Positions 26,681-32,856 of a stretch of 44,581 nt of DNA are shown here, in pieces. This DNA is from a phage, in sequence record PZ445532.1. The stretch is one strand, 5' to 3'. The position numbers and the translations under genes were made by a program. The first letter of the stretch is position 1; each line of letters starts with the position of its first letter. Under the pieces are notes generated by a model that had not been told where the DNA came from, made no database searches, and saw nothing but the letters and a program-made list of their open reading frames with translations.

Positions 26681-27493
26681 CTATTCATAGTGGCTAAACG
26701 CCTCGCACGACTCCGTACACGATCCGGTTTCATATTGTTTCATCGACCGCATTCGTGAGGCCAACTCGTCACGGCCTACTCCGTCGAATAAGGCTATAAC
26801 CTCGTTCAGTGTGTGCTTCCCTCGGTACATAGTTTGCACTTTCAGCCGGTTGTTGTTAGTGATTAACATGTTGATAAATTGGTCTTTTAGTGCCGGCTCG
26901 TCCATGCAAGCCAGCGCCACTTTCGGCAGCGACTTCTTAATACAGAACACGCAGTTGCCGAGGTGTTCTTGTATTCCTAAGTCGAACGGCTGGCCCGCCC
27001 ACCAGTCAAGAATATCTTGCTTTTCATAATCGCTAATGTCGGCCAGGTAGTGGAATCCATCCCGCGGCTTAATTCTTTTAGGCTCGTCCGCGCGCATACC
27101 TAACCAAGTTTCATAATTACCTTTGCCGTATCGCTCCTCGCAGTATTTAGTAAACGGGACGGTTTTCATGCGGTCGGTGCAGAACGCGCCCCCGACGTAT
27201 GGGTGCCCGTATTTGCGAACCATGCGCCGCCACGGCTCTAAATCTGGCCCGATTTGCTCCTCCGTTAGTACCTCATACCGCCCGGGCTTGCCCATTTCGG
27301 GGTCTGGCACTGCGCGTAGGAATGTTATGCGCCACCCCCAATGTTTGATTATGTCGCGCACAAACTGATATGTGGCAGGGTGTTCTGCGCCCGTATCCAT
27401 GAAAATAATTTCAGCGTGGGGATGGAGTTTAAGCACCTGTTTTGTCATGTAGGCGGATGTACGTCCGCCTGAAAAACTTATAATCTGTTTCAT
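26681..27493 (-). CDS. PAPS reductase-like / PP-loop ATP pyrophosphatase family protein
   Basis: N-terminal PP-loop ISFSGGRTSAYM (SGGxxS). C-terminal cysteines ETGSCTESCEAF. 270 aa. Confidence 0.7.
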   Translation of the reverse strand: MKQIISFSGGRTSAYMTKQVLKLHPHAEIIFMDTGAEHPATYQFVRDIIKHWGWRITFLRAVPDPEMGKPGRYEVLTEEQIGPDLEPWRRMVRKYGHPYVGGAFCTDRMKTVPFTKYCEERYGKGNYETWLGMRADEPKRIKPRDGFHYLADISDYEKQDILDWWAGQPFDLGIQEHLGNCVFCIKKSLPKVALACMDEPALKDQFINMLITNNNRLKVQTMYRGKHTLNEVIALFDGVGRDELASRMRSMKQYETGSCTESCEAFSHYE

Positions 27494-27824: not shown

Positions 27825-28051
27825 TTTAAATTTTCCTCGTTAACCGCTATCGCGAAGCCGCGCGGAGTGAGCGACCGGATTAATTTTGTGCGGGCGGATT
27901 TGCCTCCGAGGCGACTATACTGTTTCGAGTACCCTTTTTCAACGAAAACAGGTTTCTTCTCTGGCATACGGGAGCCGTAGCACTTATGCCCCATCTCGGC
28001 AGCACGCTCAATCATCAAGCCGCTGCCGTCAAATAATGACCAGATAATCAT
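27821..28051 (-). CDS. hypothetical protein
   Basis: 76-aa ORF. Its ATG overlaps the helicase stop (ATGA). Confidence 0.45.
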   Translation of the reverse strand: MIIWSLFDGSGLMIERAAEMGHKCYGSRMPEKKPVFVEKGYSKQYSRLGGKSARTKLIRSLTPRGFAIAVNEENLK

Positions 28052-29472
28052 TTGCGCGCCTTTTTAGCTTTCATGTATTCCATCAAGTCGTCCTGAATAT
28101 CGCGCTTACTGTCGCGACGCTCGGCGACCAATTCATCCAGTGTGCCACGCGCCTGGATAATGTAGACGAATACCGGACGAGGGTGTCCGGCTTGCATCTG
28201 GCGAACCGGCCCGATACGCTCCACAATCTGCGAAAAATGCTCATAGTTCCAGGTGTCGGAGAAGATGGCAAGGTGGTGTCCGCCATCCTGCAAGTTAAGG
28301 CCGTGACCCGCCGATGCCGGGTGCGCGAACATGATGGGGATCTCGCCCCTGTTCCACGCCTCCATGTCTTTATTGCCCTGCTTACCTTTACCCAACGCAA
28401 CGCCGTGCGGAAATTTCTTCTTGAGACGCGCAAGATCATGCTTGTACTGGTACGCGACGAGCAACGGTGCGCCGTTCAACTCCTCCACGATACTTTCCAG
28501 CGCGTCCAGCTTAGCGTCGTGAATCTTCACCCATTCGTCGGTGCGCTCACCGTCTTCGTCCACCTTATACACGGCCCCGGAAGCAAGCTGAAGGCACTTG
28601 ATAGTCTTCGACGCAGCGTTCGCCGCCTCCACTGTTCCGCTTTCCAGTTCCGCAAATAGCTCCGCTTCGAACTGGTCATAAATCTTGCGGGCTTTCTTCG
28701 GCAGGTCCACAACAACCGGCGTATATATTGGCTTGTCACATCCGAAATATTCAGCCGCATCAACGGTTAGCGACACGTCTGACAGGCGTTGTTGTATTTC
28801 TTTCTCGGAGTTTTTTAGCGGGGCGTGCTGCATAGTGAAGCTACCAGGCTTAACAGGCTTGCTAATAAACCAGCGGTCTGTGAATGCCTTATAGCTACTG
28901 CCGAGGCGTTCGCCACCGTCGATAAACCACGTCTGACCCCATAGGTCTTTCAGTCCGTTTGGTGCGGGTGTGCCAGTTAGGTTAATCCAGCGCTTTACGC
29001 GCTTGTGTGCGATCGCGGCCAGGGCGCGGGCGCGCTTACTGCCCTGCTTGCTGCGGTAGCCTTTCAGCTTAGTGGATTCATCGGCAACAACGACCGTAAA
29101 GGGCCACTCGTCGCCGCAATACTCGACAAGCCACTCAACCACATCATAGTTAACGCAAACCACGTTAGCGTCGCTCTCGAGCGCCGCGATGCGGTCCTTC
29201 TCTGGCCCAGTGCCGTCTACTACCAGCAGGGCTGGGAAACGCCATTTCTCCTGCTCCGGGGGCCATGTACCGGACGCAACGCGAAGCGGGGCCAGCACCA
29301 GTACGCGGTCCTCCTGGCTGGACAGGATACCAGTCTGGAACATTTTATTCAGCGCCCACATAGTCGCGCCGGTTTTACCCGACCCCATTGTCGCCCATAT
29401 ATTGCATCGCTTATGCTTGAGTATGAACGCGGTTATCAACTTCTGATATTCGCGACGTCGGAAACGTGCCAT
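28048..29472 (-). CDS. SNF2/superfamily II DNA helicase
   Basis: 474 aa from MARFRRREYQ. Walker A ATMGSGKTG, DExx box VVVADESTKLK, C-terminal helicase-domain-like motifs. VRR-NUC gene close by, as is common in phages. Confidence 0.8.
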   Translation of the reverse strand: MARFRRREYQKLITAFILKHKRCNIWATMGSGKTGATMWALNKMFQTGILSSQEDRVLVLAPLRVASGTWPPEQEKWRFPALLVVDGTGPEKDRIAALESDANVVCVNYDVVEWLVEYCGDEWPFTVVVADESTKLKGYRSKQGSKRARALAAIAHKRVKRWINLTGTPAPNGLKDLWGQTWFIDGGERLGSSYKAFTDRWFISKPVKPGSFTMQHAPLKNSEKEIQQRLSDVSLTVDAAEYFGCDKPIYTPVVVDLPKKARKIYDQFEAELFAELESGTVEAANAASKTIKCLQLASGAVYKVDEDGERTDEWVKIHDAKLDALESIVEELNGAPLLVAYQYKHDLARLKKKFPHGVALGKGKQGNKDMEAWNRGEIPIMFAHPASAGHGLNLQDGGHHLAIFSDTWNYEHFSQIVERIGPVRQMQAGHPRPVFVYIIQARGTLDELVAERRDSKRDIQDDLMEYMKAKKARK

Positions 29473-29476
29473 ATCT

Positions 29477-29710
29477 TTATTCCGCCTTTTTCCAGACTTC
29501 GGTTTCACTGTTCCAGTTCCTTTTTGTGGCGTCGTAGTTGGTGCTGTGCCCGATGTGCACACCTGTCGCCCGGAAGCGCTTAAACTTCTGCCAGCACACC
29601 GTCAACGGCAGCGGGGAATTAATGCCAGCAATAAACCATACGCGATCGCCTGGTTTACATTCGCCCAGCTTGGTGAGTCGGTAATGTTCTTTCATCGTCA
29701 TGTCTCCCAA
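29477..29710 (-). CDS. hypothetical protein
   Basis: 77-aa ORF preceded by hairpin GGCGGG-ACAAG-CCCGCC. Confidence 0.45.
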   Translation of the reverse strand: MGDMTMKEHYRLTKLGECKPGDRVWFIAGINSPLPLTVCWQKFKRFRATGVHIGHSTNYDATKRNWNSETEVWKKAE

Positions 29711-29738
29711 AAATGGCGGGACAAGCCCGCCGTATTAA

Positions 29739-29912
29739 TTACTTTTGCTCTGCGCGGTAGCGGCGCTGCCGTTCGCGCTCTTTTTTATTGCGGCACGATT
29801 TGCACTCTGCCCGATACCCATCCGGGCTTCGCGCAGTCTTGCCGGTGTATTTGTGGAACTGGGATAGCGGTTTAACGCAGCCGCAATTACTGCAACGTTT
29901 TTCTTCAATCAT
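29739..29912 (-). CDS. small zinc-ribbon protein
   Basis: 57 aa from MIEEKRCSNCGC...CKSC (RBS GAGGA 9 nt upstream). Two CxxC pairs. Confidence 0.4.
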   Translation of the reverse strand: MIEEKRCSNCGCVKPLSQFHKYTGKTARSPDGYRAECKSCRNKKERERQRRYRAEQK

Positions 29913-29952
29913 TTCTAAAATCCTCGGTAGAGCTAACCTGCTCACTATACTG

Positions 29953-30231
29953 TTAAGCGACCAATTCAGCAACCAATAAATCACAGTCGGCTATGTTGTC
30001 GATGACGCGAACGTCAGCACCACGGCGGGCCATTCGCTCATGTTCTCGTACCTGGTGCGGCTTCGGTTTGCCACCAGGGCGCTTAACTTCGACGAAAACT
30101 ATCTTGCCGTTGATGATGATAATAAGATCGGGCGCACCTGCGCGCCCCTCCCAAGCCACTTTACGGCAGAATCCGCCGACGGCTTTCACCCGTCTCATCA
30201 AGAGACTTTGAATCTTGCCTTCTGGTGTCAT
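29953..30231 (-). CDS. VRR-NUC domain nuclease
   Basis: 92 aa. GAPDLIIIINGKIVFVEVKRPGGKPKPHQ matches the VRR-NUC PD-(D/E)xK core. Confidence 0.75.
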   Translation of the reverse strand: MTPEGKIQSLLMRRVKAVGGFCRKVAWEGRAGAPDLIIIINGKIVFVEVKRPGGKPKPHQVREHERMARRGADVRVIDNIADCDLLVAELVA

Positions 30232-30560
30232 TGTGCGTGCCTCATACGGACTATCTCACCTACGATATACCCGATTAAATACGTCATAACCTCTTGGTTG
30301 TTGAGGTCCGGCGCAATCCCACGATCCCGCATAAGATTCAGCGCGACGTGGGTAGCCTCATGCGCCACCGTGCTAATGCCCGCCGTGTGTGGCATCCAGA
30401 CGAGGCACGTACCTTTACCAAAAACGACGAAAGCATCTGCAATAAAGTCTTCGGGGCAAGGCTGATATCCGGTTATCCGCTTGCATTTAGCCGCCACCTC
30501 GTCAGCGCACGGTGAAACGAAAAACTCATAATTATAAACGTCTACTTTTACTTTTTTCAT
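30228..30560 (-). CDS. small HExxH-motif protein (putative zinc metallopeptidase-like)
   Basis: 110 aa with VAHEATHVAL (HExxH). Confidence 0.5.
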   Translation of the reverse strand: MKKVKVDVYNYEFFVSPCADEVAAKCKRITGYQPCPEDFIADAFVVFGKGTCLVWMPHTAGISTVAHEATHVALNLMRDRGIAPDLNNQEVMTYLIGYIVGEIVRMRHAQ

Positions 30561-30564
30561 AATA

Positions 30565-32856
30565 TTATTTCCTATACCTCATCATGCAATCTCCTTCCGC
30601 GGCAAGCGGGAAGCCTTTCGCCCAAACCGGCAGGTCGCACATCAGCGCGCACAACTCCTCGGTTGTGTAGTCGTCGGTATCCGGCACTTCGGTTATCAGT
30701 TCATCGTGTACGGACAGTACGATCTCATACCCTGCAGCTTCAACGCCCGGCATGGACCACGCGAGGATATCGCGACACAGCGCCTGTACGATGTTTTCCG
30801 TTAGTTTGCCGCCGTAGGTATACTGGAAGCCCCACTGGCGCGTAGTCTGATTCTCGCCCTGGTATTTGATGCGGGTGCTGGTGCGCTTCTTACCGGTGTC
30901 TTCGTCGATCTCGGTCGTGACAGACAGCGCGATGCCGGGATAGCTCATGATGCGCCCTGAAGGCAACTCAATTTTAAGCCACCACCCCGCCGCGTTCGGA
31001 TCGTCGCGCTCCTCGTCGAAGGTTGGGTCATGCTTCGCCTTCGTTCGCACTATCTTGAGCGCTTTCCTGCCATCCTGGCGAACGTTCGCGCCAGCCCAGT
31101 ATGCTTTGCCCGGATTGCGGATCGCGCAGAGCACCGCGTCTTCCAGTTCAGCCCAAAATGCTACCGTCTTCGGGTGAGCCTCACGCCACATACGTTTGAT
31201 CGCATCGCACGTCAGCCATACGTTTTTCGGCAGTATGTAAGTTGGGCGCTCGTCTTTCTTGCCAGGCTTCGGCGGGCGCTTAGCTTCGTTAATGCGGGCG
31301 TATTCATAGCCCCGTTTCGCCGCTGCCCAAATATGATCGGGGAATGTGCCCTTCATGACGTCCGCCATCGCATACAGGTCGAGGCCCAGGTTTTTAGCAA
31401 ACTGCAGGAACGCGGCAACGCCGCCACCATAACCCAGCCCCAATTCGCACGCCTTACCAATCTGGCGTAAGTCTTTGCGGTTGGCTTTGATGTATTCCGG
31501 GTCGAGGCCAAACATCTTACCGGCAGTTTCACAATAGATATCGCGACCCGCCCTAAACACCATTAGCGCGGTTTTCTCGCCAGCGATCCAGGCGAGGCCA
31601 CGCCCTTCCACGTTGGAATAGTCCGCTACGACAAACTTCTTGCCCTTAGCCGGAATAATGCACCCGCGAACGGTCGAGGCTGTTAACTTCGATATGTCAT
31701 ACGCCCAGTGTGCCGTCCCGCGTAACAGGGAATTGATGCCGTTGGTGAGCATGTGCGACCGGACCCAAAAAGAAACGTCGCTCTCGCCATCCCGGCGCTT
31801 AATCTTCCCTTCGTGGTCGTCGCTATACTCGCCGCGTGCCAGGTTTTGCGGCTGGAAGCCCTTACCGGCCCAGCGTAGCGTGCGCTTTGCCCCACCATAC
31901 TGAAGACAACCACGGCGGCGACCATCGGCAGACAGCCCATTTACGAGCGGATTGTACTTAGTCGATGCCGTTGATGACGCACCGAGGCGCATCTCGATAA
32001 GCACTTTGCCTTCGTCGGGGAAGTCCGGGTCTTCCAGCAGGTCGTTAAGTGTGGATTTCTGCGCGTTGTGGATTGTGAACGCAGGCGCAAGGTCGCGCAG
32101 CGCTGGCAGGAAGTCATTGCCGGTCAGCTTACCGCCGAAGCGCTCCCAGGCTTCTTCCTTCAGCTCTTCTTTATGCGCCTGCACCGCTTTGATCGCGGCG
32201 TTCGCCAGGTCAACGTCCACATAGAAGCCGCGGTCATTGATCAACTGGTCTATACGCAGGATTTCGTCTTCCTTCGGCGTGTTACCCCAGTCCGGTATGC
32301 GCCAGTAGACTTCCCTCATAGCTATAATATCCAGCGCGGCATAGCGCAGGAATTTAGCCCACTCCTCGGGGTGCGTCTCGCGCGTGTAGCGGCGGATTTT
32401 GTAGGTCTTAGGGGTTGGCTTACAGAATCGTTTGATCAGCGCCTTGCCCGCCTTATCCTTCGCGTGCTCTGCGTCAACGCCCAGCACCTGGCATTGCATA
32501 TCGAGGCTACCCGGCAGCGCGTGCCGAAAGGCCATAATCATGGTATCTTCGATCTGGCCTACCGGCAGGTCAATGCCCCACTTCTCGCGAATAACCAGGC
32601 GGTCAAACAGAAGGCCGTTAGCCATCACGATTTTTGCTTTCTTGCGGGATACCTGGCGGAGCGCCTTGCGCAGTTCACGCGGCATTGTAGGGGACTCGGT
32701 GCAATCCCATGTCTGCACGCGCCCCTCGTCGATGGCGTAGGTGCAAATCATAATCTCGGTTGTCGGGTGCTCCGCGTAGGCGTATGCGCCAACTTTCTTC
32801 AGGTCCACCCCGCTAAATGTCTCGGTATCGAGAAAAAGGCGTTCGAAGTCTTTCAT
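30565..32856 (-). CDS. DNA polymerase, family A, with N-terminal 3'-5' exonuclease
   Basis: 763 aa. Exo I motif FLDTET. Pol motif A VVADYSNVEGR, motif B RQIGKACELGLGYGGG, motif C LSVHDELITEV. Confidence 0.95.
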   Translation of the reverse strand: MKDFERLFLDTETFSGVDLKKVGAYAYAEHPTTEIMICTYAIDEGRVQTWDCTESPTMPRELRKALRQVSRKKAKIVMANGLLFDRLVIREKWGIDLPVGQIEDTMIMAFRHALPGSLDMQCQVLGVDAEHAKDKAGKALIKRFCKPTPKTYKIRRYTRETHPEEWAKFLRYAALDIIAMREVYWRIPDWGNTPKEDEILRIDQLINDRGFYVDVDLANAAIKAVQAHKEELKEEAWERFGGKLTGNDFLPALRDLAPAFTIHNAQKSTLNDLLEDPDFPDEGKVLIEMRLGASSTASTKYNPLVNGLSADGRRRGCLQYGGAKRTLRWAGKGFQPQNLARGEYSDDHEGKIKRRDGESDVSFWVRSHMLTNGINSLLRGTAHWAYDISKLTASTVRGCIIPAKGKKFVVADYSNVEGRGLAWIAGEKTALMVFRAGRDIYCETAGKMFGLDPEYIKANRKDLRQIGKACELGLGYGGGVAAFLQFAKNLGLDLYAMADVMKGTFPDHIWAAAKRGYEYARINEAKRPPKPGKKDERPTYILPKNVWLTCDAIKRMWREAHPKTVAFWAELEDAVLCAIRNPGKAYWAGANVRQDGRKALKIVRTKAKHDPTFDEERDDPNAAGWWLKIELPSGRIMSYPGIALSVTTEIDEDTGKKRTSTRIKYQGENQTTRQWGFQYTYGGKLTENIVQALCRDILAWSMPGVEAAGYEIVLSVHDELITEVPDTDDYTTEELCALMCDLPVWAKGFPLAAEGDCMMRYRK

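What the first reader, a model, noticed from the sequence alone, without database searches (positions are those of the whole stretch)
29953..30560. Small HExxH protein paired with a VRR-NUC nuclease next to the SNF2 helicase
A 110-aa protein with a single HExxH motif (VAHEATHVAL) overlaps the start of a 92-aa VRR-NUC nuclease. A minimal metallopeptidase-like protein in a replication and recombination operon is unusual. It could process a phage or host protein, or it could be a non-peptidase zinc-binding fold.
Basis: partly seen in the sequence, partly recalled or inferred. Interest (0 to 1): 0.35.

Follow-up and report, generated by a model that had tools for sequence, protein, structure and literature searches.

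The report
Swappable mini zinc-protease gene in phage
The 110-residue HExxH protein is a real, conserved member of a large, unstudied phage family of miniature zinc-protease-like enzymes, but here it is an optional gene cassette dropped between the DNA polymerase and nuclease genes, not a partner of the nuclease.

Summary
The ORFs are as described. A 110-aa HExxH protein (30228-30560, minus strand) ends in an ATGA overlap with a 92-aa VRR-NUC nuclease. The window is an HK578-like Dhillonvirus.

The small protein belongs to PHROG 1365 (function unknown) and has no significant Pfam, NCBIfam, PADLOC or PDB match. Across 287 relatives (median 25% identity) H67, E68, H71, E90 and Y94 are essentially invariant. 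This gives HExxH-x18-E-xxx-Y, a gluzincin-type zinc-site signature. AlphaFold2 is confident (pLDDT 95.5) and shows a beta-sheet followed by two long helices. Covariation places the E90 end of helix 2 against the HExxH part of helix 1.

The "pairing" with VRR-NUC is not functional:
- The gene is a cassette inserted exactly between the polA stop and the VRR-NUC start.
- Of 158 related phage records only HK578 has it. Others have an empty slot or an unrelated 63-aa ORF.
- A near-identical Salmonella phage pair differs by a deletion of the gene.
- Distant relatives sit next to helicase, portal or lysis genes.

Best reading: a dispensable, soluble mini zinc metallopeptidase. An accessory host-takeover or counter-defence role is inferred, not shown. 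Interest is moderate to low.

The parts
30228..30560 (-). 110-aa stand-alone mini-gluzincin-like protein (PHROG 1365 family), the accessory cassette gene
   Evidence: ORF. PHROG 1365 at E 5.2e-20. 83% aa identity to HK578 gp37. dN/dS 0.14. AF2 pLDDT 95.5.
30348..30362 (-). HExxH codons (H67 E68 A69 T70 H71): two predicted Zn ligands and the general-base Glu
   Evidence: Read directly (CAT GAG GCT ACC CAC). H67 is kept in 286/287, E68 in 287/287 and H71 in 287/287 sequences. The motif lies in predicted helix 62-80.
30279..30293 (-). E90-V-M-T-Y94 codons: predicted third Zn ligand (E90) and the invariant Tyr one turn later, at the start of helix 90-109
   Evidence: E90 is kept in 285/287 and Y94 in 285/287 sequences. 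The H71-to-E90 spacing is 18 residues in 258/287. Covariation pairs 74-89, 73-92, 70-92/93/96.
30228..30231 (-). ATGA stop/start overlap with VRR-NUC (right junction of the cassette)
   Evidence: The same junction is used by the unrelated 63-aa cassette of SSL-2009a. In the empty slot of EK99P-1 it becomes a TAATG polA/VRR-NUC overlap.
30561..30567 (-). Left junction: polA stop TAA plus the 4-nt spacer TATT before the cassette ATG
   Evidence: Alignment of four slot states.
29953..30231 (-). 92-aa VRR-NUC / PD-(D/E)xK nuclease (core replication-module gene, not a dedicated partner)
   Evidence: Pfam VRR_NUC 26.9 bits, above GA 23.8. PHROG 93 at 1e-30 and PHROG 5702 'Holliday junction resolvase' at 6e-12. 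Present in Dhillonviruses that lack the HExxH gene.
30565..32856 (-). Family A DNA polymerase, directly upstream
   Evidence: Pfam DNA_pol_A at 2.2e-16 and PHROG 17 at 8.6e-131.
29739..29912 (-). 57-aa CxxC...CxxC zinc-ribbon protein annotated 'Lar-like restriction alleviation' (ORF listing extends it to a GTG at 29984)
   Evidence: PHROG 5558 at 1.1e-18. HK578 gp35 annotation.
28048..29472 (-). SNF2-family helicase (ORF listing extends it to a GTG at 29562)
   Evidence: Pfam SNF2-rel_dom at 5.2e-11 and PHROG 62 at 1.6e-157. HK578 gp33 is 474 aa.

Best explanation
The 110-aa ORF encodes a soluble, cytoplasmic, single-domain zinc metallohydrolase of the gluzincin type. H67 and H71 on helix 1 and E90 at the start of helix 2 are predicted to hold the metal. 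E68 would act as the general base. Y94, one turn after E90, would point into the site. It belongs to a very large, uncharacterised phage family (PHROG 1365). In this Dhillonvirus it is a dispensable cassette inserted precisely between the polA stop codon and the VRR-NUC start codon. It is therefore made with the replication genes and is translationally coupled to whatever flanks it. It does not work with VRR-NUC. The most likely role is an accessory peptidase that cuts one or a few specific host proteins, or proteins of a competing element, during infection (host takeover or counter-defence). Shown: the gene is real and under purifying selection; the active-site signature is invariant; the slot is swappable; the gene is dispensable and patchily distributed. 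Inferred: zinc binding, peptidase activity, and the counter-defence target. Sub-confidences: real catalytic metallohydrolase about 0.7; accessory cassette not coupled to VRR-NUC about 0.9; host-takeover or counter-defence role about 0.35.
For: Motif conservation: HExxH-x18-E-xxx-Y is kept in 285-287 of 287 sequences at a median 25% identity. Two confident AF2 models were obtained: the window protein at pLDDT 95.5 and a distant head-module member at pLDDT 90.4 with the same order of elements. In both, HExxH lies in a long helix and the Glu lies at the start of the next helix. This matches the zincin core described by Iyer et al. 2017 (PMC5512222). Covariation gives an antiparallel helix-helix register (74-89, 77-92, 73-92, 70-92/93/96, 62-100/104) that puts E90 about one turn from H71. 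dN/dS is 0.14. Cassette nature: only HK578 among 158 related records carries the gene. The slot alignment shows empty, 63-aa-ORF and HExxH states sharing the same junctions. dS of the cassette is 0.71, against 0.31-0.35 for its flanks. Dispensability: Salmonella phages SE1 and PSP2-22 are 100% identical on both sides of a 301-bp deletion that removes the RBS and about 76 codons, including HExxH. About 36 Klebsiella phage records carry the gene, against 249 records matching the Drulisvirus polymerase region. Contexts across phages are varied. One member lies about 1 kb from a Tad3 anti-Thoeris gene. The family is acidic (median pI 5.9) with no TM segment.
Confidence: 0.5

Rival explanations
1. 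Replication-linked protease. Like SprT/Wss1/Spartan, it would remove proteins trapped on DNA (DNA-protein crosslinks or stalled complexes), or trim a host factor used by the phage polymerase. That would explain why it sits against the polymerase gene.
For: The gene is directly adjacent to a family A DNA polymerase in Dhillonvirus/Guernseyvirinae (downstream) and in Drulisvirus (upstream, overlapping). It is next to a D5/VapE-like helicase in LoVEphage. A few members give sub-threshold Pfam SprT-like hits, with a best E of 4e-4. One BFVD structural neighbour is labelled SprT-like.
Against: There is no conserved third His; at most 46/287 sequences have His at any position from 72 to 89. hhalign against E. 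coli SprT/YggI gives probability 6% over 25 columns. The family is acidic and has no DNA-binding extension or zinc ribbon. Many members lie in head, lysis-end or early regions. The gene is absent from most phages that share the same replication module.
Confidence: 0.1
2. Processing protease for a phage protein, for example maturation of the polymerase, of VRR-NUC or, in the portal-adjacent subfamily, of a virion or ejected protein.
For: The gene is tightly, translationally coupled to its neighbours. Three distant members lie next to portal genes. Iyer et al. 2017 propose that zincin-like domains process packaged polyvalent proteins.
Against: polA and VRR-NUC orthologs work in about 150 Dhillonviruses without the gene. 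SE1 and PSP2-22 differ only by its deletion. No co-varying partner gene was seen.
Confidence: 0.1
3. Not a peptidase. It would be either a zincin-like fold that hydrolyses another substrate (a nucleic acid, as YbeY does, or a small molecule or signalling nucleotide) or a metal-binding adaptor without catalysis.
For: There is no significant fold match to any solved peptidase. The protein is very small and lacks an obvious lower subdomain to form a substrate cleft. Zincin-like folds with non-peptidase functions exist (YbeY, from my own knowledge).
Against: The general-base Glu of HExxH is kept in 287/287 sequences, which argues for catalysis. The H-H-E plus Tyr arrangement and the strand immediately before the HExxH helix are the peptidase pattern. 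All weak Pfam hits are peptidase families: M4, SprT-like, DUF5700, DA1-like and astacin.
Confidence: 0.15
4. One reading: a dedicated two-gene module in which the HExxH protein acts with, or on, the VRR-NUC nuclease.
For: The two genes share a 4-nt ATGA overlap. The order polA - HExxH - VRR-NUC recurs in Guernseyvirinae and a metagenomic relative.
Against: The same ATGA junction serves an unrelated 63-aa ORF, and in the empty state the VRR-NUC ATG overlaps the polA stop. VRR-NUC is present without the HExxH gene in nearly all Dhillonviruses. The HExxH gene is present without VRR-NUC in Drulisvirus and most other contexts.
Confidence: 0.04

Closest known systems
Gluzincin metallopeptidases (MEROPS clan MA(E): thermolysin M4, aminopeptidase N M1)
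   Same: HExxH lies on a helix and a Glu lies on the next helix. The 18-residue spacing equals that of family M1 and is one less than in thermolysin (my knowledge of those families; spacing measured). The residue four after the Glu is invariant (Y94 here; Asp170 in thermolysin, from memory). The weak best Pfam/PDB hits are to thermolysin.
   Different: The protein has 110 residues instead of 300 or more, and no lower subdomain. No significant sequence or fold match was found (Pfam E 0.23; PDB phmmer E 0.6; Foldseek none).
Mini-zincins and mini-Glu-zincins (Acel_2062, PDB 3e11; proabylysin, MEROPS M95, PDB 4jiu; Trame et al. 2014, PMC3890501)
Zincin-like MPTase domains of phage and plasmid polyvalent proteins, including ArdC (Iyer et al. 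2017, PMC5512222)
   Same: The described core is the same: a small sheet, an N-terminal helix, then the HEXXH helix and a Glu-bearing helix. Both have a phage conflict-related setting. One BFVD structural neighbour is annotated 'PolyVal metallopeptidase' (E 3.2e-4, TM 0.65). Some family members lie beside portal/minor-capsid genes.
   Different: This family is always a stand-alone protein of about 100-150 aa rather than a domain of a giant protein. No Pfam MPTase-PolyVal hit was obtained.
SprT/Wss1/Spartan DNA-protein-crosslink proteases
   Same: Both are small HExxH domains, and this gene has a replication-module setting in this genome.
   Different: The third ligand there is His, while here it is Glu. 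hhalign probability is 6%. No DNA-binding region is present and the family is acidic.

Membership tests
Zincin / gluzincin metallopeptidases (clan MA(E)) | HExxH motif located on an alpha-helix | tested here: met
   H67-E68-x-x-H71 lies in predicted helix 62-80 and is kept in 286-287 of 287 sequences.
Zincin / gluzincin metallopeptidases (clan MA(E)) | Third zinc ligand is a Glu on the following helix, 18 or more residues after the second His | tested here: met
   E90 is kept in 285/287 sequences. The spacing is 18 residues in 258/287. E90 is the first residue of helix 90-109. The same holds in a distant member (E105 at the start of helix 104-122).
Zincin / gluzincin metallopeptidases (clan MA(E)) | The three ligands converge on one metal site in 3D | tested here: inconclusive
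Covariation (MI-APC, Neff 242) couples 74-89, 73-92, 70-92/93/96 and 77-92. This places E90 within about one helical turn of H71, which is compatible with a metal site but is not proof.
Zincin / gluzincin metallopeptidases (clan MA(E)) | Significant sequence or fold similarity to a recognised peptidase family | tested here: not met
Zincin / gluzincin metallopeptidases (clan MA(E)) | Zinc-dependent peptide-bond hydrolysis | not testable with these tools
   This requires biochemistry.
SprT / Wss1 / Spartan | HExxH followed by a third His ligand a few residues downstream | tested here: not met
   No position from 72 to 89 has His in more than 46/287 sequences.
SprT / Wss1 / Spartan | Profile similarity to SprT-like proteins | tested here: not met
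   Pfam SprT-like gives a best E of 4e-4 in 2 of 64 members, below threshold. hhalign against E. coli YggI/SprT gives probability 6.2%.
Mini-zincin (Acel_2062 family) | HEXXHXXGXXD motif (Asp third ligand) | tested here: not met
   Position 74 is Gly in 7/287 sequences and position 77 is Asp in 0/287. The motif is as given in PMC3890501.
Metzincins | HExxHxxGxxH plus a Met-turn | tested here: not met
   Gly at +3 and His at +6 are both absent.
MPTase domain of polyvalent proteins | Embedded in a multidomain polyvalent protein | tested here: not met
   Nearly all of the best 150 representatives are 100-153 aa with one matched stretch that covers the protein. The exceptions are a few fragments of 73-87 aa, one 216-aa protein with an N-terminal extension, and one spurious 658-aa repeat protein. 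The median length of the 287 aligned sequences is 119 aa.
ImmA/IrrE (M78) repressor-cleaving proteases | Peptidase_M78 profile match and an adjacent HTH repressor gene | tested here: not met
   No M78 hit was obtained. The neighbours are polA and VRR-NUC.
VRR-NUC nucleases (the neighbouring gene) | Pfam VRR_NUC above the gathering score and an intact PD-(D/E)xK motif | tested here: met
   26.9 bits against 23.8. D35 and E48-V-K50 are read from the translation.
PHROG 1365 | Full-length profile match | tested here: met
   E 5.2e-20 over residues 1-108. Ten distant relatives also map to PHROG 1365. The family is annotated 'unknown function'.

The most novel reading that the evidence does not exclude
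PHROG 1365 would be a previously unrecognised, very widespread family (more than 4,500 clusters at 50% identity) of about 110-residue stand-alone HExxH-x18-E-xxx-Y enzymes, among the smallest metallopeptidase scaffolds, with no solved structural relative. Diverse phages would deploy them as mobile counter-defence or host-takeover proteases: expressed with the replication genes here, and possibly virion-delivered in the portal-adjacent subfamily. Each would cleave a specific host immune or housekeeping protein.
Probability: 0.25. Interest if true: 0.65.

Novelty: new variant of a known kind. Interest (0 to 1): 0.35.

Why it matters
If the family is an active protease, it adds a compact, widely distributed and entirely uncharacterised enzyme class to the phage accessory repertoire. 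It has thousands of sequence clusters and no Pfam family or structure. It would also be a tractable candidate for a proteolytic counter-defence or host-takeover factor, because natural with/without phage pairs already exist (HK578 vs other Dhillonviruses; SE1 vs PSP2-22). The precisely bounded slot between polA and VRR-NUC shows how small genes are exchanged without disturbing translational coupling in a replication operon. For this particular window the finding is modest: a plausible enzyme of unknown target, not a new nuclease-protease system.

Tried and rejected
- Pfam, NCBIfam and PADLOC scans of the protein and of 50-64 relatives gave nothing above threshold.
- PDB searches by sequence (single protein and profile) gave only chance-level hits.
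- The afdb50 library was unavailable.
- The search for related loci with the broad alignment failed for lack of a conserved stretch. With the close alignment it gave only 8 viral loci and nothing in 185,579 bacterial and archaeal genomes.
- There is no match in 5,426 complete E. coli genomes. Only weak partial hits exist, on Aeromonas plasmids.
- Two published Dhillonvirus accessory proteins were considered and rejected. Anti-Tmn has a different predicted architecture (rod-shaped, with N-terminal helices followed by a C-terminal three-stranded sheet; PMC11846954). Ksap1 is 74 aa and lies between the methyltransferase and phosphatase genes (PMC11564622).
- Literature searches for PHROG 1365, or for a characterised phage mini-metalloprotease of this type, found nothing.
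- The promoter/terminator scan showed nothing above shuffled expectation, so there is no evidence that the cassette has its own promoter.
- Fusion partners were sought in the rare longer members (P0084, P0253). No informative domain was found.

Full report
**What is in the sequence**

On the minus strand the window carries a tightly packed replication operon:
- a family A DNA polymerase (30565-32856);
- a 110-aa ORF (30228-30560);
- a 92-aa VRR-NUC nuclease (29953-30231);
- a small Lar-like zinc-ribbon protein (29739-29912);
- a PHROG 9291 protein;
- an SNF2 helicase (28048-29472).

The 110-aa ORF starts 4 nt after the polA stop. Its TGA overlaps the VRR-NUC ATG as ATGA at 30228-30231. It has one HExxH (VAHEATHVAL), encoded at 30348-30362.

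The region is 90% identical to Escherichia phage HK578 and 92-94% identical to many other Dhillonviruses. The window is a near-complete Dhillonvirus genome.

**Is the gene real and is the motif meaningful**

The protein is 83% identical to HK578 gp37, annotated as a hypothetical protein. dN/dS between the two is 0.14.

It matches PHROG 1365 (unknown function) at 5e-20. It has no significant Pfam, NCBIfam, PADLOC or PDB-sequence match. The best are thermolysin-type hits at E 0.2-0.6.

A profile search of 1.84 billion representative proteins found 4,541 relatives at E<=1e-3 and 181 at E<=1e-10. Nearly all of the best 150 are stand-alone proteins of 100-150 aa.

I aligned 287 of them, with a median identity of 25% to the query. 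The conserved positions are:

| Position | Sequences that keep it (of 287) |
|---|---|
| H67 | 286 |
| E68 | 287 |
| H71 | 287 |
| E90 | 285 |
| Y94 | 285 |
| Y9, N88, L95, G97 | 226-267 |

- The H71-E90 spacing is 18 residues in 258 sequences.
- There is no conserved third His, no Gly at +3 and no Asp at +6.
- The site is therefore of the gluzincin type (His, His, Glu), not SprT/Wss1, metzincin or mini-zincin (Asp-zincin).
- The x18 spacing equals that of family M1. The invariant residue four after the Glu recalls thermolysin's Glu166/Asp170 pair. Both points come from my own knowledge of those families.

**Structure**

AlphaFold2 with a 50-sequence alignment gives pLDDT 95.5 and pTM 0.88. 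The order of elements is:
- two strands;
- two helices;
- two strands;
- a long helix 62-80 that carries HExxH;
- a loop;
- a helix 90-109 that begins with E90.

A distant member from a head-packaging context (P0248) gives pLDDT 90.4 with broadly the same order of elements, plus one short extra strand. Its Glu lies at the second residue of the last helix. This is the zincin core as described by Iyer et al. 2017: a small sheet, an N-terminal helix, the HEXXH helix and a Glu-bearing helix (PMC5512222).

The fold has no convincing solved relative:
- Foldseek against the PDB finds nothing below E 1.
- Against predicted viral structures there are 24 hits at E<1e-3. All are uncharacterised phage proteins from very different phages. 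A few are labelled PolyVal metallopeptidase, SprT-like or metalloprotease.

As a substitute I computed covariation (MI with APC, Neff 242).
- The top long-range pairs form a clean antiparallel register between the two helices: 74-89, 77-92, 73-92, 70-92/93/96, 62-100/104.
- They also recover the N-terminal hairpin.
- This places E90 within about one helical turn of H71.
- That is compatible with a shared metal site but does not prove it.

**The 'pairing' with VRR-NUC**

Among 158 phage records matching this region, only HK578 covers the whole query. Most of the listed rows cover about 82% in two pieces spanning 1,467 bp instead of 1,801 bp. tblastn finds the protein in no other Escherichia phage.

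Aligning four slot states shows the following:
- In EK99P-1 the polA stop and the VRR-NUC start overlap directly (TAATG).
- In SSL-2009a an unrelated 63-aa ORF occupies the slot.
- In HK578 and the window the HExxH gene does.
- The two cassettes use the same left junction (TAATATTATGAAA).
- All four states share the right-hand AATGACACC that contains the VRR-NUC start.

The ATGA overlap is thus a property of the slot, not of this gene. The cassette's dS (0.71) is twice that of its flanks (0.31-0.35), as expected if it has a separate history.

Homologues of 36-45% identity occur at the same position in Guernseyvirinae (SE1, Tsm2, Pantoea AH01). A 50%-identical metagenomic relative lies in the same module, two small ORFs downstream of polA. 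In Drulisvirus podophages the gene sits directly upstream of, and overlapping, the DNA polymerase, with no VRR-NUC.

It is accessory in those lineages too:
- About 36 Klebsiella phage records carry it, against 249 that match the polymerase region.
- Salmonella phages SE1 and PSP2-22 are 100% identical on both sides of a 301-bp deletion. The deletion removes the ribosome-binding site and about 76 codons, including HExxH.

**Wider context**

More distant PHROG 1365 members lie in many settings:
- next to a D5/VapE-type helicase (LoVEphage);
- between portal and minor-capsid genes (Porphyromonas phage005a; a JGI contig);
- between terminase and portal;
- after the lysis cassette (Ralstonia Anchaing, Serratia Eta);
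- among small early ORFs;
- once about 1 kb from a Tad3 anti-Thoeris gene.

No partner gene is conserved. Close relatives were not found in 185,579 bacterial and archaeal species genomes or in 5,426 E. coli genomes. The family is mildly acidic (median pI 5.9) and has no membrane segment.

**Most likely mechanism**

The invariant His-Glu-x-x-His, the Glu and the Tyr, the confident helix-loop-helix and the purifying selection point to an active zinc hydrolase. It is most probably a peptidase, because all weak profile hits are to peptidase families and the strand-then-HExxH-helix pattern is the peptidase arrangement.

The gene shows these accessory features:
- patchy presence among near-identical phages;
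- a swappable slot;
- natural knock-outs;
- wandering genomic positions.

These are the marks of an accessory conflict gene rather than a core replication or maturation factor. I therefore favour a soluble mini-metallopeptidase that cleaves a specific host protein, or a protein of a competing element, during the replication phase. Catalysis, metal binding and the target are inferred, not shown.

Rivals:
- **SprT/Wss1-like crosslink or replication-linked protease.** It is supported only by polymerase adjacency in two lineages. It is contradicted by the ligand type, hhalign probability 6% against E. coli SprT, acidity and the lack of any DNA-binding part.
- **Processing protease for phage proteins.** It is contradicted by dispensability.
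- **Non-peptidase or non-catalytic zincin-like protein.** It is not excluded, given the lack of a fold match.

**Comparison and novelty**

It works like a gluzincin and resembles the mini-zincin and mini-Glu-zincin idea (about 110-aa minimal scaffolds; Trame et al. 2014, PMC3890501). It also resembles the zincin-like MPTase domains of phage polyvalent proteins. It fails the specific membership tests for each of these families.

The family is catalogued (PHROG 1365; GenBank 'hypothetical protein', occasionally auto-named 'thermolysin catalytic domain' or 'protein DA1'). I found no characterisation of it in the literature.

I rate it a new variant of a known kind, of moderate to low interest. 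It is a credible, widespread but functionally blank phage mini-metallohydrolase. The specific claim of a nuclease-protease pair is not supported.

Noticed in passing
window 30561-30567 and 30228-30231; L001-L003: The polA/VRR-NUC boundary is a precisely delimited cassette slot with at least four states among Dhillonviruses: empty with a TAATG overlap, a 63-aa ORF, the 110-aa HExxH gene, and a larger insert in Shigella phage 1b. The two cassettes share the left junction (TAATATTATGAAA), and all aligned states share the right-hand AATGACACC with the VRR-NUC start, so translational coupling is preserved.
   Followed up: partly
L005 3927-4227 vs L027: Salmonella phages SE1 and PSP2-22 are 100% identical across 1.5 kb except for a 301-bp deletion. 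The deletion removes the start and the HExxH half of the homologous gene, which makes a natural knock-out pair.
   Followed up: yes
window 26681-27493 (-): A 270-aa PAPS-reductase-like protein (Pfam 4.3e-8; PADLOC SspD 3.8e-11, BrxP 1e-6) lies downstream of the SNF2 helicase, where HK578 encodes a DNA methyltransferase. This looks like a second variable slot, possibly for DNA modification.
   Followed up: no
L017 3995-4369; L031 4001-4381; L025 5001-5378: Distant family members recur immediately beside portal genes: portal-X-minor capsid in two cases and terminase-X-portal in one. This hints that one subfamily may be virion-associated.
   Followed up: partly
L032 4001-4360 and 5370-5699: One family member lies about 1 kb from a gene with a Pfam Tad3 (anti-Thoeris) hit. 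This is a single weak pointer to an anti-defence neighbourhood.
   Followed up: no
window 29715-29731 (-): A GC-rich hairpin followed by a T-run lies just after the Lar-like zinc-ribbon gene. It may terminate the polA-to-Lar transcript ahead of the helicase, but the scan found no more terminator-like sites than in shuffled sequence.
   Followed up: no
window 29739-29984 and 28048-29562 (-): the ORF listing extends the Lar-like ORF and the SNF2 ORF to upstream GTG starts. Internal ATGs at 29912 and 29472 match the HK578 annotation and avoid a 32-nt overlap with VRR-NUC.
   Followed up: partly
L004 3986-4342: In Drulisvirus the homologue overlaps the start of the T7-like DNA polymerase by 11 nt. 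Adjacency to a family A polymerase in two unrelated phage architectures is unexplained.
   Followed up: partly
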